This document shows, one piece after another, positions 285 to 29,340 of a stretch of DNA of 64,000 nt. The position numbers and the translations under genes were made by a program. Source of the DNA: a virus; the UHGV virus genome UHGV-0038492; one strand, written 5' to 3'. The first letter of the stretch is position 1. Each line of letters opens with the position of its first letter. Under the pieces are notes generated by a model. It was not told the origin of the DNA and ran no database searches. It worked only from the letters and a program-made list of their open reading frames with translations.

Positions 285-291
285 TAAGCAT

Positions 292-331
292 TACCCTACT
301 CCTCTCGGGAGTAGGGTAGCTTTTATTTTTT
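292..331 (+). terminator. Rho-independent terminator between convergent genes
   Basis: Stem taccctactcc / ggagtagggta with loop tctcg, then gcttttatttttt. Confidence 0.75.
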
Positions 332-332
332 C

Positions 333-2113
333 TTAGTGAGTGGTTTTGATGTATTCAAACGGATCGGTAACGGTTTCTCCCTGACGACGTAAGAATGCTT
401 CTAACACAACGTTCTTATCCGGCAGTAAGAAGAAGTCCGTTGCGATTTCCATTGCATTAACACGCCCTGCGGTAAGGTTAATCCCTACACGACGACGTAC
501 TTCTTCAGGAACACCATGAATACTCAGCAACTCGATTAACGTTGTTTCACGAGACTGGTTCATCATGTTCGTTGCAGAAGGATACGCCTGGGTTAAGTCC
601 GCATCTGCGGTTTGCCCACGGAAAGCAGTGTAGAAATCATCAAACTCTTTAATGATTCCTCGCAGACCGTTTTCTGCGTTCATACACGCAGTTAACGTAA
701 CAATCCAACCGTCCGTACCGATAACTTCTTCATCGAAATCATTACGCATTGCACTACCTACACAACCGATAACCAATCCTTGTTCATAAAGGTAATAGGT
801 GTAAGCAATACAAATACGTTTTGGTAACGAAGGGAAGATATCGTACATCGAATAACCTGCCAGTACGGAAATTGCCGAAGACAAGTCGTTCGTCTTTTTA
901 TCCAACAACACAATCATCAGGTTATCGAAGATGTTATAAACGCAGTATTCGAGCGGGAACTCTTTCTGTGCTTTTAAGTGCCATTCCAGTTTCTCCTCGT
1001 AAGGCAACTCTGGCAAGTCTAACTTGTTTAAGCCCAGTTCGGTTTCCAGAATAGCGTTAAGTTTGTAAGAAGGACGTTGGCCTTCGTGAACACGCAGTGA
1101 ACGAAATAGACACATTGCATCCACACAGTAGAACGATGCGGTACAATAAAGTACGTGCCACTGTTGTGAAGGTGCTTTGGTCAGTGATTTCGATTCCGTT
1201 TTCTTCGATGCTTCGTCTTTCTTGAAGTAAACACGACGGTATTGTTTCGGTACATCAGGATGGCAAAAGACGTCTTCTGGTGGAATCCCTGCGGCTTCCA
1301 GTGCTTCTAACATGCGTGAAATATCGAACTCGTGGTTCCATGCAACTAATAAGTCAGGTAGACGAGGGTGAATCTCTTCAAACATGCGTTGAATACAGCA
1401 GCCAGAGTTTAAGCATTCGTAAACGAAGATTTTATATCCGTCGATAACGTCTTTGATTTCAGTCTTAGGATTGCCTTCTTTGTCTTTGCCACGAAAAGCA
1501 ATTTTAGAAAGTAACTCCTTCGCACGTTTAATTAGTCGCGCTTCGAAGTTCTCACGGCCACAACGCGCAACGTAGTCTTTCGTTGCGAAGAAATGAATTT
1601 CGTCATCCAAAACAAAACTCATAATCCAAGGGTCTCGAGATTTGTCTTCTTCTCGAGTTTCCACGTCGTATACACAAATACGGTTAGGTGAAACGGCGTT
1701 AGGCCATTTCTTTACATACCTTTCTTTAATCCAGCTGGTGATAGGTAAGTCAGCCCAGTATACGTACGGAGAGGTACAGACTTGGCGTAATGAACGTTTT
1801 TTGTCAGGAAATCTTGCCCCTAGACCCATCTGGATAGTTTGTGACATCATCACATCCGTGGTCATGTATTCCTGACACTTACTGCGTTCTTCGTATTCTT
1901 TCTTTTCTTGATGGTTACGGTGTTGTGGTAAAGTAATGTAGATAGGCCGTTTCAGATTTTCACGCATGACGATACGCGGGATGAATCTGCCATCTTTAGT
2001 ATGGACGACCTCCTTTATGAGCACGAAGTCGTTTTCTTTCTGCTGATCGGTTGCGTACGAAACAAATTTGCACTCTTTGGCAATAACGTCTTCCGGTGCG
2101 TAATAGTTATTCA
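333..2113 (-). CDS. family-B DNA polymerase-like protein with 3'-5' exonuclease domain (possible fragment of a split polymerase)
   Basis: Translation shows ExoI-like VYDVETRE, ExoII-like AWNHEFDISRML and ExoIII-like YCVDAMCL in order; weak motif-A-like YDIFPSLP; no motif B/C seen. Start set at MNNYYAPE (ATG 2111-2113) rather than track start 2249, which would overlap the divergent gene. Confidence 0.5.
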
Positions 2114-2185
2114 TGTTTTCACTCTCAAATCTAGCGGCTGCTATACTGATTTGTGGGTAATGTAATTTCTCAAAAGGAAACACAA

Positions 2186-5699: not shown

Positions 5700-8652
5700 A
5701 GTCTGCGGTGGTGTCGTGACGGTTGTAAACGATAACAACGTCGTCTTTCAGACCGATGTCACCACTGGCTTCAATATCCAGTTTCTTACCAATCGTTGCG
5801 CGTGCAGCTTCGGATACCACAGTAAACAGACGCATGTCTTTGTCTGGACCCATCGCATCCAACTCAACCCCGATGATCGACGTGTCAAGCGTTTCGCTGA
5901 GCTCATTACCAATCTCTGTTGCCGAGATAGTAAGATGTGAACCCAAGTAGTCGTTGATAACTTGAGACGTTTTCTTACGAATCTGCGTTAACAGATCGCT
6001 GTTGCTACGGTTAGCCGCTGTGAGGTAATAACGAACGGTAAACTGGTTTTCAGCCGGTTTCGGCGTCACCACCCCGTCTTCGGTACGTGCATCGATATAA
6101 CCCATCGTGGTGATAGGAACGAAATACCCTTCCGTACGCTCTAACAACATCGGTTTTAACGTCGGTAGAACCACGGTCACGTAGTTAACGATATTCTCAA
6201 TAACTGCGTTCAGATAGGATTTCGCAGACGCTGTGGTAGCGAATTTATAACGTGCGTCGAAGACCGCCATTTCACTACGGAACTTAATAGAACGAGATTT
6301 CGCAATCTTAGGATTACCGTACTCGTCTTTTACTAAGTCCCCTTCGTGGTGCAGGATAATCTGCTGGCCGGTTTCGTCAAGCTTAGGATCGCCTTTACGG
6401 TGTTCGTAAGTGATTTGTAGCGGTGGTGTACGGCCTGCGTCATACGTGTAAACCGGAACCCCATTCTCATCACGTTTCACCACGTCAATTTCCCACGTCG
6501 CTAACACGTCTTTGTCGTAATACTCGTAGTTGATGCTGTCAGTAACAGCACGCGCTTTACGCCAATAGTACGTCATCGCTTTACCCAGTTCGATTTTGAA
6601 TATCTCGTGGGTAATACCGATAGCGTCACGAGAAGGCGCTGTGATTAACGTATCCATCTCTACACGTTCGTAGTTCCCAGGGTAATAACCTGTGCAACCG
6701 TAGAACAGGTTAAAATCTGTCAGCAGTGGAACAGGTGTTTCCGTTGGGTTACTTCCGTTAATGCGGGTGTTGGTCAGTACCAGTTCGTCGTTACGGTCAA
6801 CGTCCAGGTTAGTTTCCAGCAAGAACTCCCAAACACGTTCACTGCCCTGCTTACCGACTAACGTACCGTTAATGTACGCCAAGGTGTTATCGGAATTACG
6901 AGGACGGAAAGACAGCTGTGCAAAGACTTGGTCATCAGTCAGTGCCTGGTAAGGTGCTTCTGACTTCGTAATCGTACGCAACACATAACCTGCTTCCGTT
7001 TTCTCGATAGTGTAGTCAGCAGTAACGACGCTGAGCTCCGTCGAGACGTTGGTCGCAATAAAGCGTTTGGAGTTTAATAGCGGTTTATCCAACTGGTAAA
7101 TACGCACGTCAATCGCTTTGTTGTTAATGTCAACAACGTAATGGAACGGTGTAAACAAATAACGGTTCGTGTTTGCTGCGTTAATCAAGTCTTCCTTACG
7201 CATGGTCTTCGCCAATACCGTCATCTCGGCATCTACAGTCAGACTGGTATCCGTAAAGCGATAGAGTGTGTCAGGAAGAATGGTCAGGCGATTACCGTTG
7301 ACTTTCACTGTCGGAAGATTAACCAGCTCGTTCCAGGAGAAATAGAACGGCGCAGTAATCGTACCAATCGGTGAGCTGACGTTAGCAATCGTCGATTCCA
7401 ACATCGGTGCTGTCATGAAGTACGTACGACTGGTCACATAGTCGTTAGGTTTAGACAGCGTAAGACCGTAATCGGAAACCGTAGCTTCAAGCTGCTTTTC
7501 CGTCACAGGTAATTTACGTGCACCCACAGCGTTATTAACAACGCGAGTACGTAAGTCACTGAACGAGAGCTGACTGCGACCACCCGACAGCATCTTCCCA
7601 GCTTTTGCTGCAAGCTGTTTAATAGAGAATGCTTTAATCGGGTTGATATAGTTCGCGTCATACTCTTCGTTTAAGTCACGTAGACTGAAGCTATACTCAT
7701 CAGACGGGTATGCAGAGATGTCTAACTCCAACGGCCCTAAGGTCGTATAGACGTCCATCCTGATAGTCCCACTGACGAGATTCTTCGCCATGTAAATAGA
7801 TGGAATCGTACAACGGATGTTGCCGTTACCCACCTGAATCAATGCTGTTGGCGTGTTCGGGTCGTAAACATCCCGACTGTGGGTGTGCTGTATCTCTACC
7901 CACTTGTTGCTGCCCGTTGCCTTCATCCAAACACGAACGTAGAAGAACTTGTTAGTGTAAGCACGGGTCATGACGAAAGTGTTGTTACCTTCGACAGTGT
8001 TACTTTCTTCTTTCACCGCATACTGCATAACCGGGATATGAATAGCCAGCAGCTGTGACGACGTTGTGTTAGTGGACGTTAGTTCCCATTCCAGGGCGTT
8101 CGTGGAAACTGGTGAAATCGGCGATTGTGTTTCAGTAATCCACAGTACCTGGAATGCCGGGTTCTCGTTCGTTCCGTATGGAAGTACACGGATTTCGATT
8201 GGGTACTGAATAGCAAACGTGTAACCAGAAACCGTAAAAACAGTGTCACGTGGGATAACGACTTTACGAACCCCCGCGATTTGCAACGGATACGCTTTCG
8301 AGATTAAGCTGTCAACGTCAATTAACAGTAACAGTTCTGTAGTAGCAGGCTGCGCAAAGACGTCAACGTAATCCACGTCTGACATGTGTCGGAACAGGTC
8401 ATCGTAGGTCTGTGCCATTGACGGGAACGTTTTAGGAATAGATTCCTGGAGCCCCATCAACGTCGCGTGTCCCATCATCGTTCCCATTTCTGCCAAATAA
8501 ACGACAGGGTCGGTAGGGTCACGGAGATAAATTTGACCATCGGCATCTTCAACATCTTGAAGCTGGTTTAGCAGCATTGTCTGCATCGCCGCAGGGTTGT
8601 GTGCGAACAGCAGAAGTTTCTTTGCCAAAGTATCGTAAGTTGTTGAACTCAT
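5698..8652 (-). CDS. hypothetical large protein (984 aa)
   Basis: Long ORF; start overlaps stop of upstream minus-strand gene at 8652 (coupled pair); no catalytic motif recognised. Confidence 0.65.
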   Translation of the reverse strand: MSSTTYDTLAKKLLLFAHNPAAMQTMLLNQLQDVEDADGQIYLRDPTDPVVYLAEMGTMMGHATLMGLQESIPKTFPSMAQTYDDLFRHMSDVDYVDVFAQPATTELLLLIDVDSLISKAYPLQIAGVRKVVIPRDTVFTVSGYTFAIQYPIEIRVLPYGTNENPAFQVLWITETQSPISPVSTNALEWELTSTNTTSSQLLAIHIPVMQYAVKEESNTVEGNNTFVMTRAYTNKFFYVRVWMKATGSNKWVEIQHTHSRDVYDPNTPTALIQVGNGNIRCTIPSIYMAKNLVSGTIRMDVYTTLGPLELDISAYPSDEYSFSLRDLNEEYDANYINPIKAFSIKQLAAKAGKMLSGGRSQLSFSDLRTRVVNNAVGARKLPVTEKQLEATVSDYGLTLSKPNDYVTSRTYFMTAPMLESTIANVSSPIGTITAPFYFSWNELVNLPTVKVNGNRLTILPDTLYRFTDTSLTVDAEMTVLAKTMRKEDLINAANTNRYLFTPFHYVVDINNKAIDVRIYQLDKPLLNSKRFIATNVSTELSVVTADYTIEKTEAGYVLRTITKSEAPYQALTDDQVFAQLSFRPRNSDNTLAYINGTLVGKQGSERVWEFLLETNLDVDRNDELVLTNTRINGSNPTETPVPLLTDFNLFYGCTGYYPGNYERVEMDTLITAPSRDAIGITHEIFKIELGKAMTYYWRKARAVTDSINYEYYDKDVLATWEIDVVKRDENGVPVYTYDAGRTPPLQITYEHRKGDPKLDETGQQIILHHEGDLVKDEYGNPKIAKSRSIKFRSEMAVFDARYKFATTASAKSYLNAVIENIVNYVTVVLPTLKPMLLERTEGYFVPITTMGYIDARTEDGVVTPKPAENQFTVRYYLTAANRSNSDLLTQIRKKTSQVINDYLGSHLTISATEIGNELSETLDTSIIGVELDAMGPDKDMRLFTVVSEAARATIGKKLDIEASGDIGLKDDVVIVYNRHDTTAD

Positions 8653-17441: not shown

Positions 17442-18950
17442 ATGCAACAGTATTTTGAAATTCCGTCGTTAGACGCGACCATTCGCAAACCAATAATCGA
17501 TGGCGTTATACAACGTGTACTTAATGAATCAGGTATTGATAAAGCAGCGGTTGTTTTCCTTGATGAATTCAATAGCGCGCATCAACCCGATTCCACGTTA
17601 GGCGACGGTACAGAAGTTGAGTACAGCTCGCCTGAAAAGGTGTATGTTGAAGTAGAAGAAGAACGCGATGAGTGGGCCAGAATCAATCGTCAGGTTGGTC
17701 AGCAAGCCGAACCGTACTTCTTTGAAAACTCCGTCGATCAGGTGCGTGCCTGGCCCGTTAGAACGATGTATAACGTAACGGTAACGTTACGACGTACCAG
17801 TGCTTCTCGTGATGAGTTATTGCGCTGGACAAACCGTTTGGACTCGTTAGTGGACATGGGTCGTTATTCGACAATGACCGAGTCAGAAGCGTTTTATTAT
17901 ATTCCGAAACCGGCACTGAAGTTATTGAATGCCTGTTATGTCGCCGCAGGGACTCGTGTACCGACGTTTGATGATTTTAAAGCCTATCTCAAAGCGTACT
18001 TTACACCCGACGTGTTCCGCGCTGCTAACGTTGCCGGTGGTCAGGAATCTATTGCGGTACGCTATGCACCTACTCGCTTAGAGACTGTATACGACGTTCA
18101 GACACCTGCCTGGGATAAAGACGAGAACCACTGGGAAGCCACATTCGTTGTGCGTTTCTCTTATCAACGTCCCGAAGAGATTGTGGTTTCGTATCCGTAT
18201 ATCATCAACCAGACACCGCTTCCTGATGAATACTGGCCAGAGATAGATCCACCGTGGGTGTCTAACGAAGAACTGGTGTATCGTCATCCGCAACAAAAGA
18301 ATCTCGATTCAACGTGGTGGATTAACGAAACCCGTCAGTATATTCGTTTACCGTATCTACTGTCGCCGACAGAACAGTTCCACCGTACACATTCCCCGTT
18401 AAAAGATAAACTCCTGCACGTCTTCGGTACAGACGTTGTATTCGATGAAGACAACATGAGTTCACCGAAAGTGTTATCTGTCGAGGATTTACCGTACGAG
18501 TGGAATCCAGATTTGTTGCCGTATATCGAACACTGTCGAGCAATAGACCCTACCGGGCAGACGGGTGTCTTCCGTGTAGAGCTGTTCGAAGAAGGACAAA
18601 TCATCGAACCCCGTTTCTATCATTGGGAAGACAATACCTTCTTTTTGAAAGGACGTGATTTAAAAGTTAACAAGAGTTACTACCTAACCGAATCGGTGAT
18701 GTTCGATTGGCGAGGGATGAACCTGTGGCCACTCCAGCTTTATCCTAAAGCCGCGAAAGTGTTGATAGAATGGTTGTTCCCGAAATGGGATGTACCGGAC
18801 TGGTGGTGGGATAAACCCGTATTACCGCCGAGTGTTATCGACGACATTAATAAACTGATTCCTAACGTAGAAGCCCGCGTCTTGCTGACGGTGCTGAACT
18901 CGACCGTGATTACCATGCGAGGGACAGAGAATGCTCAAAGCGAAGCGTGA
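17442..18950 (+). CDS. hypothetical protein (502 aa)
   Basis: Long ORF with RBS aaggaac before ATG 17442. Confidence 0.65.
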   Translation: MQQYFEIPSLDATIRKPIIDGVIQRVLNESGIDKAAVVFLDEFNSAHQPDSTLGDGTEVEYSSPEKVYVEVEEERDEWARINRQVGQQAEPYFFENSVDQVRAWPVRTMYNVTVTLRRTSASRDELLRWTNRLDSLVDMGRYSTMTESEAFYYIPKPALKLLNACYVAAGTRVPTFDDFKAYLKAYFTPDVFRAANVAGGQESIAVRYAPTRLETVYDVQTPAWDKDENHWEATFVVRFSYQRPEEIVVSYPYIINQTPLPDEYWPEIDPPWVSNEELVYRHPQQKNLDSTWWINETRQYIRLPYLLSPTEQFHRTHSPLKDKLLHVFGTDVVFDEDNMSSPKVLSVEDLPYEWNPDLLPYIEHCRAIDPTGQTGVFRVELFEEGQIIEPRFYHWEDNTFFLKGRDLKVNKSYYLTESVMFDWRGMNLWPLQLYPKAAKVLIEWLFPKWDVPDWWWDKPVLPPSVIDDINKLIPNVEARVLLTVLNSTVITMRGTENAQSEA

Positions 18951-27054: not shown

Positions 27055-29340
27055 ATGAAAGATACCCGAATCTCTAATTTAGAGAAACTCGTAGAAGCCG
27101 GTACTAGTCTGGCCCAAAACGTCATCGGCAACAACACCGCCAGCGAAATGTGGAATACGATTGTTGCAGGCGAGTCCGTACGCAGCAACGCAAAAGTGTT
27201 TGGCGTTCTGCGTGACGAAGCATCACAGCACTATGCCAACGCTTTTGGTGGCAAGAAAATGTCTCATGCTGCGACTGTCGCCTCCGCAATGATTCTGGGT
27301 GCAGCTAACCACGGTAAAGACCTGCAAGAACGTGTTGCCCAGGAATACGCTAAGCCGGAATTCCACACCAAGTATAACCTGGATATTGGTATCCCTGGTG
27401 CGCAAGGTGGTGACTGGGGTCGTGAGCGCATGGTTGTTGCTCAGGAATATTACAGCAACAAAGACTACGACAAAAACCTGGGCCTGACCTGGACCCTGAA
27501 CGTACGTGCTCTGGAAACTCAGTCCAAGTTTGCTGAAACGCTGTTCCCGACCATTACCGTTGACACCAACGATGTTGGTATTACCGTACGTACTAAAGTG
27601 ACTACCGTTTCTCGCGGTATCATGAACGCGCTGCTGAGCAAAGACGTGGTTGAAGACCATCGTCGTCCGCTGCACAACGCACTGACTGACCACACCGTTC
27701 TCCAGGACGAAGCGATCAACATCGTTCCTTACGTAATGGAAACCGGTGAAAACCAGGAATACTTCGTAAGCGAAGAACTGGTTCCGAACGAAAAAGTTCG
27801 CCTGGGTCGTGTACCTCCGTACCCGACTAACTACCTGAGCTTTGCAAACGACACGCTGAACCTGTTCCAGCTGTCTGCGCATCCGGGTATCGTTCAGGAA
27901 GGTTACGATGAAACTGATGAAATCGCACCGGGTTGTGCTCTGGGCAGCCTGCTGATTTCTGTACGTAAACCTGCCGAAGAAGCGAAAGCAGGTAAATTCA
28001 TCAAACTACACGTTCGTGACATGCAGTTCGCAACCTTCCAGCGTCCTGCTGAAGGTGACGGCCGTGAACTGGTTCTGCAATTCCGTCGTACCGCGTTCTC
28101 TCTGAATGCGAAAACCACTGACTGGAAAGGCGACGCTATTCCGGCTCTGCAAGCACTGGGTCAGAACTCCTACACCCTGCGCTACGTTATCACCATCACC
28201 ATGTCCCTGTTCACCAGCGGCCAGTTCGGTGGTAAAGTAGACATTTCCGGCCACAAACTGGAAATCGAAGGTCTGTACGATGCAACTGGTAACAAAGTTG
28301 ATACCAAGTCTGGTACCGGTAAAGTTATCCTGGACGGCCTGAAACTCGAACTGATGGGCTGGCGCTTCGATGGTACTCGTACCAACGAAAACCGTCGTAC
28401 CCAGGGTCTGCTGCTTGACCCAATTTGGGAACAGGAAAACTACAAACTGCAATACGGTTCTCCGATTCTGACCAAGTCTCCGGTTGGTGTTGAATACGAC
28501 GACACTGAACGTCTGGACGACCTGATCTCTGCGGTGAACATCCGTAACGAACAGCTGGCTATTACTCAGACGCTGTCTTACACTGAAGCAGTACGTAACG
28601 CAGCCGCTGCGATGATCACTCCGTGGGACAAACCGGCTATCCGTGGTCTGGGCCGTCACTGGGTTGCTCCGTGGTTCAAAGAGTCTGACTACAAAGTCGA
28701 TGAAGTTGTTCAGTCTCTGGATACCAAAGAAGCGCTGATCAACGCTCGTCAGGGTCTGTTGCAGCGTATCGGTAGCCAGGTAACTCAGGCTATCCAGGAT
28801 TCTCGTTTCATTCCTGCACTGCGCCTGCTGACCGCTGATCCGGACATTCTGCCGAAAGTTATCATCGCAACTGACGAACCGACTGCATCTATGCTGCTGC
28901 TGGTTCAGGGCGACCAACGTCTGCTGGGCGACCGTTATGAATACGAAGTCGTTACCACCAACGATGACCGCTGGCGTATCTACAACGCAGCTGACGATTC
29001 CTGGACTCGTCGTCTGCAATGGTTCCTGAAAGTTCCGACTGCGGACGATGGTTCCTACTGCGTACTGAACTGGGGTAACCACTTCTGGTCTCCGATCATG
29101 GTTACCAACATCAACATCCAGCGTAACGGTTCTACTTCTAAAGAACTGGCTGTACAGCCGCGTAACGCGCATATCTGCCACTGCCCGATCACTGGTCTGA
29201 TTTGGGTTAAAGGCATCACCAAACTGGTTGAAGAAAAACTGGCTTACAACGTTTCTGTAGAACAGAACGGCCAGAAACAAACCGACGGTGGTGTAGCAGG
29301 TAATGTTGCTGGCGACGGTAAAGACAAAGCTGGTAAATAA
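27055..29340 (+). CDS. major capsid protein (phiKZ-like jumbo phage type), putative
   Basis: 761 aa (~83 kDa) ORF with RBS aagg, the strongest codon bias in the window, strong terminator after it; size and composition fit my recollection of phiKZ/SPN3US-type capsid proteins; no search run. Confidence 0.6.
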   Translation: MKDTRISNLEKLVEAGTSLAQNVIGNNTASEMWNTIVAGESVRSNAKVFGVLRDEASQHYANAFGGKKMSHAATVASAMILGAANHGKDLQERVAQEYAKPEFHTKYNLDIGIPGAQGGDWGRERMVVAQEYYSNKDYDKNLGLTWTLNVRALETQSKFAETLFPTITVDTNDVGITVRTKVTTVSRGIMNALLSKDVVEDHRRPLHNALTDHTVLQDEAINIVPYVMETGENQEYFVSEELVPNEKVRLGRVPPYPTNYLSFANDTLNLFQLSAHPGIVQEGYDETDEIAPGCALGSLLISVRKPAEEAKAGKFIKLHVRDMQFATFQRPAEGDGRELVLQFRRTAFSLNAKTTDWKGDAIPALQALGQNSYTLRYVITITMSLFTSGQFGGKVDISGHKLEIEGLYDATGNKVDTKSGTGKVILDGLKLELMGWRFDGTRTNENRRTQGLLLDPIWEQENYKLQYGSPILTKSPVGVEYDDTERLDDLISAVNIRNEQLAITQTLSYTEAVRNAAAAMITPWDKPAIRGLGRHWVAPWFKESDYKVDEVVQSLDTKEALINARQGLLQRIGSQVTQAIQDSRFIPALRLLTADPDILPKVIIATDEPTASMLLLVQGDQRLLGDRYEYEVVTTNDDRWRIYNAADDSWTRRLQWFLKVPTADDGSYCVLNWGNHFWSPIMVTNINIQRNGSTSKELAVQPRNAHICHCPITGLIWVKGITKLVEEKLAYNVSVEQNGQKQTDGGVAGNVAGDGKDKAGK

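What the first reader, a model, noticed from the sequence alone, without database searches (positions are those of the whole stretch)
333..2113. Stand-alone family-B polymerase-type exonuclease domain protein, suggesting a split replicative DNA polymerase
Exo I (VYDVETRE), Exo II (WNHEFD) and Exo III (YCVDA) motifs occur in order, and a motif-A-like YDIFPSLP follows. The protein ends without recognisable motif B (KxxxNSxYG) or motif C (DTD). The polymerase may be split across genes or highly diverged, as reported for some jumbo phages.
Basis: partly seen in the sequence, partly recalled or inferred. Interest (0 to 1): 0.45.

Follow-up and report, generated by a model that had tools for sequence, protein, structure and literature searches.

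The report
Exonuclease-side subunit of split phage polymerase
This gene encodes the front half of a two-piece DNA-copying enzyme that phiKZ-like giant phages are already known to have; it is ordinary for this phage group, except that it probably also carries one of the enzyme's catalytic motifs.

Summary
The ORF is real: window 333-2114, minus strand, 593 aa. The window is from an uncultured phiKZ-like jumbo phage, 81% identical in this protein to Erwinia phage Asesino and 76% to Salmonella phage SPN3US.

The protein matches PHROG 3011 ("DNA polymerase") end to end. By profile and predicted fold, its closest solved relative is the RB69/T4 family B polymerase.

Two motifs were mis-assigned:
- The true Exo III is YNIFD (393-397), not YCVDA.
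- The true motif A is DADLTQAYPS (504-513), not YDIFPSLP.

So this is not only an exonuclease. It comprises the N-terminal domain, the proofreading domain and the first palm segment with motif A.

Motifs B and C are absent from the ORF and from the whole window. In contigs of the same phage lineage they lie on a 765-aa "divDNApol" protein (PF20286) encoded about 27 kb to the left of the window.

This split has been published since 2008-2011, so the finding is a new member of a known kind. My only addition is a likely correction: the motif A aspartate sits on this subunit, not on the polymerase subunit as published. That would make the active site composite, as in the split gp43A/gp43B of Aeromonas phage 44RR.

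The parts
333..2114 (-). Gene for the 593-aa N-terminal (exonuclease-side) subunit of the phiKZ-type split family B DNA polymerase
   Evidence: ORF list and translation. PHROG 3011 'DNA polymerase' matched end to end, E 2.5e-252. 81% identical to Asesino gp61 and 76% to SPN3US YP_009153338, both annotated 'DNA polymerase' in RefSeq.
750..2114 (-). Residues 1-455: PolB N-terminal domain plus 3'-5' exonuclease domain. This is the part that folds confidently on its own.
   Evidence: AlphaFold2 pLDDT is mostly above 90 for residues 1-455. Foldseek best matches are RB69 gp43 (E 9e-14, about 470 aligned columns), followed by Pol epsilon.
1650..1673 (-). Exo I, VYDVETRE (D150, E152)
   Evidence: D150 and E152 are invariant in 29 of 29 homologues. 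They align with RB69 FDIEV, D114/E116.
1323..1340 (-). Exo II, WNHEFD (N260, D264)
   Evidence: N260 is invariant and D264 is D in 28 of 29. Aligned with RB69 'WNVESFDIPY' and T4 'WNIEGFDVPY'.
1116..1130 (-). It is actually the conserved strand-helix segment between Exo II and Exo III.
   Evidence: Aligned with RB69 'VLDYIDLYKKF' and T4 'SILDYLDLYKKF'.
924..938 (-). True Exo III, YNIFD (Y393, D397)
   Evidence: Y393 and D397 are invariant in 29 of 29. Aligned with RB69 and T4 'YNIID'.
822..845 (-). It is not motif A.
   Evidence: D425 is Asp in only 13 of 29 homologues. hhalign places the string opposite T4 residues about 345-357, well before T4 motif A at residue 408.
576..605 (-). True polymerase motif A, DADLTQAYPS (D504, D506, Y511, P512)
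   Evidence: These four residues are invariant in 29 of 29. The segment is aligned with RB69 and T4 'FDLTSLYPS' within one collinear alignment. A profile of residues 456-593 alone finds T4 401-427 at 10.7 bits, against a best score of 6.4 among 2000 shuffled T4 sequences.
375..584 (-). Residues 511-580: helical C-terminal segment after motif A, proposed to dock onto the polymerase subunit
   Evidence: The pLDDT of 10-residue blocks is 31-73 when the protein is modelled alone. It is 77-95 when residues 421-593 are modelled joined to the 765-aa partner by a GS linker. No coordinates or PAE were returned, so contact between the two parts is inferred.
291..319 (.). 13-bp-stem hairpin between the stop codon of this gene (333-335) and the end of the convergent upstream-cut gene (87-284). 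It is a probable terminator for both genes.
   Evidence: Terminator-like hits on both strands; sequence read directly. This is a consensus match only.

Best explanation
**What it is.** The gene encodes the N-terminal subunit of the two-gene family B replicative DNA polymerase typical of phiKZ-like (chimallin-encoding) jumbo phages. The 593-aa protein carries:
- the PolB N-terminal domain;
- a complete DEDDy 3'-5' proofreading site (D150, E152, D264, Y393, D397);
- the first palm segment with motif A (D504-x-D506-LTQAYPS);
- a roughly 70-residue helical tail.

**The partner.** It is a 765-aa 'divDNApol' protein encoded about 27 kb to the left of the window, on the opposite strand to this gene, so the two genes converge. 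It carries the fingers with motif B, a roughly 225-residue helical insert, motif C (SDTDS), the KxY strand and the thumb.

**How it most likely works.** The two proteins assemble non-covalently. [quoted passage not shown] The motif A strand completes the palm next to motif C. The polymerase active site would then be built from both chains, while proofreading resides wholly on this chain.

**Shown here:** homology, motif positions and their conservation, co-occurrence of the two genes, and absence of the partner from the window.

**Inferred:** physical assembly, and catalytic use of D506.
For: **Family and fold.**
- PHROG 3011, E 2.5e-252.
- Family profile against PDB: RB69 gp43 at E 9e-8, in three collinear pieces covering Exo I-II, Exo III and motif A.
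- hhalign against T4 gp43: one alignment, probability 96.6%, query 229-526 to T4 183-428, running through Exo II, Exo III and motif A.
- Foldseek: RB69 gp43, E 9e-14.

**Conservation.** All exonuclease residues and motif A residues listed above are invariant or nearly so.

**Motif A tested on its own.** A profile of the C-terminal region alone hits T4 motif A. None of 2000 shuffled T4 sequences reached its score.

**The partner.**
- It matches PF20286. Its residues 94-189 match PF00136 positions 98-190, and residues 88-166 match Pol zeta 1021-1098. These cover the hairpin before the fingers and motif B.
- Q153, K157, N160, N161, G165 and S417-D-T-D-S421 are invariant.
- T4 motif A maps to about PF00136 position 61. 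That corresponds to about partner residue 57, where no conserved Asp exists.

**The published motif A site.** EL D229 maps to partner D226. That position is Asn in 7 of 25 family members. It lies after motif B and between helices in a high-confidence helical region of the model.

**Assembly.** Residues 511-580 gain confidence only when modelled together with the partner.

**Same genome.** Both genes occur in about 300 phage records with the same distribution of organism names. In contigs of this lineage they are linked by synteny.

**Precedent.** Aeromonas phage 44RR2.8t gp43A (498 aa) carries motif A, and gp43B (391 aa) carries motifs B and C. The split 43A and 43B products of the related phage 25 co-purify and have polymerase activity (PMC2988022).
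Against: - **Motif A strand not resolved.** Residues 461-510 stay at pLDDT 38-56 even in the fusion model. The motif C hairpin is only moderately confident, at 62-72. The model therefore does not show the strand docked beside motif C.
- **No direct view of contacts.** Neither coordinates nor PAE were available.
- **Weak on its own.** The motif A match is short: 9-10 bits, with a domain E-value of about 94 in the PDB search. Its weight comes from collinearity and invariance.
- **Published analyses differ.** Two studies place both catalytic aspartates on the polymerase subunit or treat this protein as an exonuclease only (PMC3201878, PMC7824862).
- **Partner not in the window.** It was found in other contigs of the same lineage, so same-molecule linkage for this exact window rests on synteny.
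- **No experiment.**
Confidence: 0.75

Rival explanations
1. The protein is only a stand-alone proofreading exonuclease that associates with a self-sufficient polymerase subunit. Both catalytic aspartates are on the polymerase subunit, and the C-terminal 140 residues of this protein serve only as an adaptor.
For: This is the published view. PMC3201878 marks EL D229 and D398 on the polymerase chain. PMC7824862 says the polymerases lack a fused exonuclease, which is 'encoded elsewhere'. The motif A strand is not confidently placed in my fusion model.
Against: - EL D229 maps to partner D226, which is Asn in 7 of 25 family members. It lies after motif B, out of canonical order, and sits in a confidently helical region.
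- This protein has an invariant D-x-D...YP segment. It aligns collinearly with T4/RB69 motif A and the following 'N-S-x-ET'.
- The AR9 orthologue is annotated as having 'a partial catalytic domain' (PMC5312081).
Confidence: 0.2
2. The protein belongs to a different DEDD exonuclease family (RNase D, DnaQ or RNase T type) unrelated to PolB, and the motif resemblance is coincidental.
For: No Pfam family, including PF03104, is matched directly. phmmer against PDB with the single sequence finds nothing.
Against: - All PDB profile matches shown (the best 60 of 68, E up to 1) are family B polymerases.
- All of the 50 best Foldseek matches are RB69 gp43 or Pol epsilon.
- hhalign to T4 gp43 gives probability 96.6%.
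- A distant family member, P0062, passes the PF03104 threshold with 26.8 bits against a cut-off of 23.
- The protein has the PolB N-terminal domain and a PolB motif A.
Confidence: 0.02
3. The gene is a decaying fragment of a once-intact polymerase gene, or the two halves are rejoined after translation by a split intein.
For: The gene lacks motifs B and C. Split PolB genes joined by split inteins exist in archaea (from my own knowledge, not tested here).
Against: - Full-length conservation in 287 of 302 phage records, with invariant catalytic residues.
- The same 593-aa product is called on many contigs.
- No intein or Hint family was found on either half.
- The junction segments are conserved and are predicted as ordinary helices.
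Confidence: 0.02

Closest known systems
phiKZ-type split family B DNA polymerase, exonuclease-side subunit (SPN3US YP_009153338, Asesino gp61, EL gi 82700984; PHROG 3011)
   Same: Full-length homology at 76-81% identity to SPN3US and Asesino. The neighbouring genes are the same. The partner is the same (PF20286 divDNApol, preceded by an SH3DP gene) at about the same distance of roughly 27 kb.
   Different: Nothing structural. It is a new orthologue from an uncultured lineage. A 99%-identical protein is already in NCBI as a hypothetical protein in an assembly labelled E. coli.
Split gp43A/gp43B polymerase of T4-related Aeromonas phages 44RR2.8t and 25
   Same: A PolB divided between motif A and motif B. 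The N-terminal chain has the exonuclease and motif A, and the C-terminal chain has motifs B and C. The phage 25 products co-purify and are active (PMC2988022).
   Different: - In 44RR the two cistrons are adjacent on one strand, 49 nt apart. The break is at the tip of the fingers, near PF00136 position 140.
- Here the genes are about 27 kb apart and convergent, and the break lies before the 'SPNG'-type hairpin, between PF00136 positions about 61 and 98.
- Both sides of the break carry extra sequence: about 80 residues after motif A and about 98 residues before the hairpin, against 45 residues in T4.
- The sequences are far more divergent from T4.
Single-chain RB69/T4 gp43
   Same: Same order of Exo I, Exo II, Exo III and motif A. 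The N-terminal and exonuclease domains have the same fold.
   Different: About 15% identity. The chain ends about 80 residues after motif A. No clamp-type partner was examined here.
Bacillus phage AR9 gp132 / gp152
   Same: [quoted passage not shown] This is the same division of labour that I infer here.
   Different: The AR9 proteins were not aligned here. The host is Gram-positive and the phage is only distantly related.

Membership tests
Family B DNA polymerase, N-terminal plus 3'-5' exonuclease module | Exo I motif DxE with conserved Asp and Glu | tested here: met
   D150 and E152 are invariant in 29 of 29 and align with RB69 D114/E116.
Family B DNA polymerase, N-terminal plus 3'-5' exonuclease module | Exo II motif N-x(2-3)-F-D | tested here: met
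   N260 is invariant and D264 is D in 28 of 29. 'WNHE-FD' aligns with T4 'WNIEGFD'.
Family B DNA polymerase, N-terminal plus 3'-5' exonuclease module | Exo III motif Y-x(3)-D | tested here: met
Y393 and D397 are invariant and align with T4/RB69 YNIID.
Family B DNA polymerase, N-terminal plus 3'-5' exonuclease module | Fold of the PolB N-terminal and exonuclease domains | tested here: met
   AlphaFold2 pLDDT is mostly above 90 for residues 1-455. Foldseek gives RB69 gp43 at E 9e-14 over about 470 columns.
Family B DNA polymerase, N-terminal plus 3'-5' exonuclease module | Direct match to the curated Pfam model PF03104. This is a detection criterion, not a defining property. | tested here: not met
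   No PF03104 hit for this protein at E up to 1. A distant family member, P0062, passes with 26.8 bits against a cut-off of 23. The divergence exceeds what a single-sequence HMM search can reach.
Family B DNA polymerase catalytic core | Motif A (DxxSLYPS) with the metal-binding Asp | tested here: met
   D506-LTQAYPS is aligned with T4 D408-LTSLYPS. D506, Y511 and P512 are invariant. The C-terminal-only profile beats all 2000 shuffled T4 sequences. Catalytic use was not tested.
Family B DNA polymerase catalytic core | Motif B (KxxxNSxYG) and motif C (DTD) on the same chain | tested here: not met
   Both are absent from the ORF and from the window. They are present on the separate 765-aa partner: K157..N161..G165 and S417-DTD-S421. 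This protein alone is therefore not a complete PolB.
phiKZ-type split PolB, exonuclease-side subunit (PHROG 3011) | End-to-end match to the family profile | tested here: met
   Residues 3-583 match profile positions 2-573 of 576, E 2.5e-252.
phiKZ-type split PolB, exonuclease-side subunit (PHROG 3011) | A divDNApol (PF20286) partner gene in the same genome | tested here: met
   The partner is not in the window. Contigs of the same lineage carry it, linked gene by gene to this gene: L018/L009, then L008, then this gene. The two genes co-occur in 302 and 299 phage records.
phiKZ-type split PolB, exonuclease-side subunit (PHROG 3011) | Physical complex with the partner and joint polymerase activity | not testable with these tools
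   The only support is an indirect AlphaFold2 signal: residues 511-580 go from pLDDT 31-73 alone to 77-95 in the fusion.
T4-type split gp43A/gp43B (phages 44RR, 25) | Adjacent cistrons split by a short untranslated spacer at the tip of the fingers | tested here: not met
   Here the genes are about 27 kb apart and convergent, and the break comes before the fingers. In 44RR the spacer is 49 nt and the break is near PF00136 position 140.
Split-intein-joined PolB | Intein (Hint) halves at the junction | tested here: not met
   No Hint or intein family was found on either half.

The most novel reading that the evidence does not exclude
In the whole phiKZ-like group, the polymerase active site is composite. 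The motif A aspartate (D506 here) would be supplied in trans by the protein usually called the 'exonuclease', and the published placement of both catalytic aspartates on the polymerase subunit (EL D229) would be wrong. The 'exonuclease' subunit would then be indispensable for DNA synthesis itself, not only for proofreading. The roughly 180 extra residues flanking the break would form a dedicated assembly interface.
Probability: 0.65. Interest if true: 0.35.

Novelty: new member of a known kind. Interest (0 to 1): 0.2.

Why it matters
For genome annotation it matters little. The gene family, the split and the partner are all documented, and RefSeq already labels the orthologues 'DNA polymerase'.

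The modest value lies in the motif map. If motif A really sits on this subunit, three things follow:
- The two genes must be treated as one enzyme when essentiality screens of nucleus-forming phages are interpreted.
- Work to express the enzyme would have to co-express both proteins, with or without the small SH3DP protein.
- Domain diagrams in the literature that show a self-contained polymerase subunit would need correcting.

It also gives a second, independent example, beside T4-related phages 44RR and 25, of a PolB broken between motifs A and B.

Tried and rejected
1. **Partner inside the window.** tblastn with the SPN3US polymerase half gave nothing better than E 0.34. Regex scans of all six frames for motifs B and C found only one chance string containing a stop codon. 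The 761-aa ORF at 27055-29340, similar in length to the partner, is the major head protein.

2. **Single-sequence searches.** Pfam and phmmer against PDB found nothing meaningful. A family profile was needed.

3. **hhalign of the polymerase half or of the fusion alignment against the single T4 sequence.** It recovered only the KxY/KxG strand, at 2% probability. A single-sequence template is too weak.

4. **Pfam on the C-terminal 153 residues alone.** No hit.

5. **Fusion AlphaFold2 model.** It was meant to show motif A docking next to motif C. The tail became ordered, but the motif A strand did not, and no coordinates were returned. The result is therefore suggestive only.

6. **Partner on the same NCBI contig.** The index returned other contigs of the same lineage, so linkage rests on overlapping synteny.

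7. **Primary papers.** Cornelissen 2012 and Thomas 2008 are not held. A search for gp43A first returned an irrelevant RB69 paper.

8. **Rejected ideas.** An intein junction, a pseudogene, and an RNase D or DnaQ-type nuclease (see rival explanations).
Full report
**1. The observation**

The ORF lies on the minus strand. Its stop codon is at 333-335, and the first ATG that matches all homologues is at 2114, one base beyond the finding's 2113. It encodes 593 aa. A longer TTG-initiated reading to 2249 is not supported. The Asesino orthologue is 596 aa, and gene callers report 593 aa on every contig that carries the identical protein.

**2. Where the window comes from**

- Megablast and tblastn against phage genomes place the window among SPN3US/Asesino-like jumbo phages. 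These belong to the phiKZ-related group, which encodes multisubunit RNA polymerases.
- The protein is 81% identical to Asesino gp61 and 76% identical to SPN3US YP_009153338. RefSeq annotates both as 'DNA polymerase'.
- A 99%-identical protein occurs on a 223.8-kb contig of an NCBI third-party assembly labelled Escherichia coli. The identical protein occurs on several metagenome-derived contigs.
- The neighbouring genes are conserved phage proteins of unknown or virion function. The major head protein is at 27055-29340.
- A 13-bp-stem hairpin at 291-319 separates this gene from the convergent gene that ends at 284.

**3. What the protein is**

A single-sequence search finds no Pfam family and no solved structure. 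PHROG 3011 ('DNA polymerase') is matched end to end at E 2.5e-252.

A profile of 29 homologues (alignment A1) hits RB69 gp43 at E 9e-8. The match comes in three collinear pieces:
- Exo I and Exo II.
- The segment from 'VLDYIDLYKKF' through Exo III 'YNIID'.
- Motif A, 'FDLTSLYPSIIRQVNISPET'.

hhalign of A1 against T4 gp43 gives one continuous alignment at 96.6% probability and E 5e-10. It runs from query 229-526 to T4 183-428 and gives the same correspondences.

AlphaFold2 folds residues 1-455 with pLDDT mostly above 90. Foldseek returns RB69 gp43 at E 9e-14 over about 470 columns, followed by Pol epsilon.

**4. The motif map, corrected**

|---|---|---|---|
| Exo I | VYDVETRE (148-155) | correct; D150 and E152 invariant | |
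| Exo II | WNHEFD (259-264) | correct; N260 invariant, D264 is D in 28/29 | |
| Exo III | YCVDA (329-333) | wrong; this segment equals T4 'SILDYLDLY' | |
| Exo III (true) | YNIFD (393-397) | Y393 and D397 invariant | |
| Motif A | YDIFPSLP (424-431) | wrong; D425 is Asp in 13/29 and aligns well upstream of T4 motif A | |
| Motif A (true) | DADLTQAYPS (504-513) | D504, D506, Y511, P512 invariant | |

The true motif A is followed by 'NQSRETT', which corresponds to T4 'NISPETI'.

I tested motif A independently of the exonuclease part. A profile of residues 456-593 alone found T4 gp43 residues 401-427 with 10.7 bits. The best score among 2000 shuffled T4 sequences was 6.4.

The protein is therefore the N-terminal domain, a complete DEDDy exonuclease, and the first palm segment. 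It is not a bare exonuclease domain.

**5. The missing half**

Motifs B and C are absent from the ORF and from the whole window.

In SPN3US the other half is YP_009153312, 759 aa. It is the very protein used as the exemplar of the 'divergent DNA polymerase' in PMC7824862, and its gene lies about 27 kb from the exonuclease-side gene.

In contigs of this window's own lineage I reached the orthologue by walking along the genes:
- It is a 765-aa PF20286 (divDNApol) protein at L018:11193-13490.
- A small SH3DP gene (PF20287) lies directly upstream.
- It is separated from the exonuclease-side gene by the same series of genes as in SPN3US.

In window orientation the partner lies roughly 27 kb to the left of position 1, on the plus strand, convergent with this gene.

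The two genes co-occur in 302 and 299 phage records, with near-identical counts by organism name.

**6. Where the break falls**

The partner's residues 94-189 match Pfam DNA_pol_B positions 98-190. This is below the Pfam threshold (E 4e-4 to 1e-3). Its profile aligns residues 88-166 with yeast Pol zeta 1021-1098 (E 0.03). Both cover the 'SPNG'-type hairpin, the two fingers helices and motif B.

Elements of the partner, in order:
- Motif B: Q153, K157, N160, N161 and G165, all invariant.
- 'SVLTSTCR', with T184 and R188 invariant. I read this, from my own knowledge of PolB sequences, as the 'SVTxxGR' helix; this equivalence was not tested here.
- An insert of about 225 residues that the model predicts as helical.
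- Motif C: S417-D-T-D-S421, invariant.
- K496-H-Y.

T4 gp43 residues 365-492 match Pfam positions 18-144. T4 motif A (D408) therefore corresponds to about position 61. On the partner this would fall near residue 57, where there is no conserved Asp. The invariant residues in the first 87 positions are only F7, Y14, R16 and R78.

The break thus lies between motif A and the hairpin that precedes the fingers. Where T4 has 45 residues between motif A and that hairpin, this enzyme has about 80 on one chain and about 98 on the other.

**7. Comparison with the literature**

- The split is known. PMC3201878 (2011) discovered the divergent polymerase half in phiKZ-like phages and noted that the exonuclease domain had been detected earlier as a separate ORF.
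- PMC5105663 refers to the 'split subunit DNA polymerase'.
- PMC7824862 restates that the exonuclease is 'encoded elsewhere'.

PMC3201878 marks both active-site aspartates on the polymerase chain of phage EL, at D229 and D398. I mapped these using an EL-like phage whose protein has Asp at exactly these positions:
- D398 is the second Asp of motif C, D420 here.
- D229 corresponds to partner D226. That position is Asp in 18 and Asn in 7 of 25 family members. It lies after motif B, and it falls between helices in a region modelled with pLDDT above 95.

This is hard to reconcile with a metal-binding motif A aspartate at the end of a beta strand. The invariant D506 on the exonuclease-side subunit is the better candidate.

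The idea is not wholly new. [quoted passage not shown]

**8. Assembly**

Modelled alone, residues 456-593 are poorly ordered; the means of 10-residue blocks run from 27 to 73.

I then modelled residues 421-593 joined by a 25-residue GS linker to the 765-aa partner, using an alignment with six paired rows plus unpaired rows for each half:
- Residues 511-580 rise to pLDDT 77-95.
- The partner's first 100 residues score 85-97.
- Residues 461-510, which include the motif A strand, stay at 38-56.
- The motif C hairpin is only at 62-72.

The best structural matches of the fusion model are RB69 and T4 gp43, at E about 1e-3 with low TM-scores, as expected for a very divergent polymerase domain.

I read this as support for docking of the C-terminal tail onto the partner. 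It is not a demonstration that motif A completes the palm. There was no partner-alone control, and neither coordinates nor PAE were returned.

**9. Precedent**

In Aeromonas phage 44RR2.8t the annotated split polymerase has two chains:
- gp43A, 498 aa, contains motif A (D397-LTSLYPS) and the first fingers helix.
- gp43B, 391 aa, contains motifs B and C.

The corresponding products of phage 25 co-purify and have polymerase activity (PMC2988022). A PolB whose active site is assembled from two chains broken between motifs A and B is therefore established biochemistry.

The present enzyme differs in three ways. The exact break point is before the fingers rather than at their tip. The genes are far apart and convergent rather than adjacent. 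The junction carries extra sequence on both sides.

**10. Verdict**

- Two of the four motif assignments are wrong.
- 'Stand-alone exonuclease domain' understates what the protein contains.
- The phenomenon has been in the literature for over a decade, so I rate it a new member of a known kind with low interest.
- The one point of some value is the likely relocation of motif A to this subunit. I hold this at about 0.65-0.7. It is directly testable with a two-chain structure prediction and simple mutants.

Noticed in passing
L009:5553-7160 and L018:6261-7868, compared with L011:5203-6702 + 6909-7160, L023:5911-6162 + 6369-7868, and L006:15748-17172 + 17454-17705: One gene lies about 3-5 kb downstream of the polymerase half; its SPN3US counterpart is annotated 'RNA polymerase beta subunit'. 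In some contigs it is a single 535-aa ORF. In others it appears as 499 or 474 aa plus an 83-aa ORF after a gap of about 200-280 nt. This could be an intron, an indel or a frameshift variant.
   Followed up: no
Salmonella phage SPFM records: P0050-P0059, P0154 and P0181, H55: Several SPFM phage proteins score highly with HMMER against both polymerase halves, yet BLAST aligns only 3-23% of the query. This looks like frame-shifted or low-quality sequence in those records.
   Followed up: no
L004 and L008 (GCA_024614745.1, contig DAILKQ010000003.1); L009-L011; L018-L023: This jumbo-phage lineage is present as a 223.8-kb contig in an NCBI third-party assembly labelled Escherichia coli. It is also present in many metagenome and Logan assemblies: a neighbouring 278-aa protein is indexed in 399 blocks of the collection. 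It appears to be a widespread uncultured relative of Asesino and SPN3US.
   Followed up: partly
L018:13593-14006 (minus strand), and the equivalent gene in L006, L007 and L019-L023: A 137-aa SH3DP protein (PF20287, phrog_3235) is encoded directly upstream of the polymerase half in every contig examined. PMC7824862 raised it as a possible extra subunit. I did not include it in the models.
   Followed up: no
window 504-513 of the protein, i.e. window 576-605 (minus strand): Motif A carries a second invariant aspartate two residues upstream (D504-A-D506). T4 and RB69 have Ser-Phe there. Its role is unknown.
   Followed up: no
window 291-319: A perfect-looking 13-bp-stem hairpin lies between two convergent genes (ends at 284 and 333) and is followed by a T-run on the plus strand. 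It is probably a shared terminator.
   Followed up: partly
window 27055-29340 (plus strand): A 761-aa major head protein (phrog_3231, E 1e-278). Its length is close to that of the polymerase half, but it is unrelated.
   Followed up: yes
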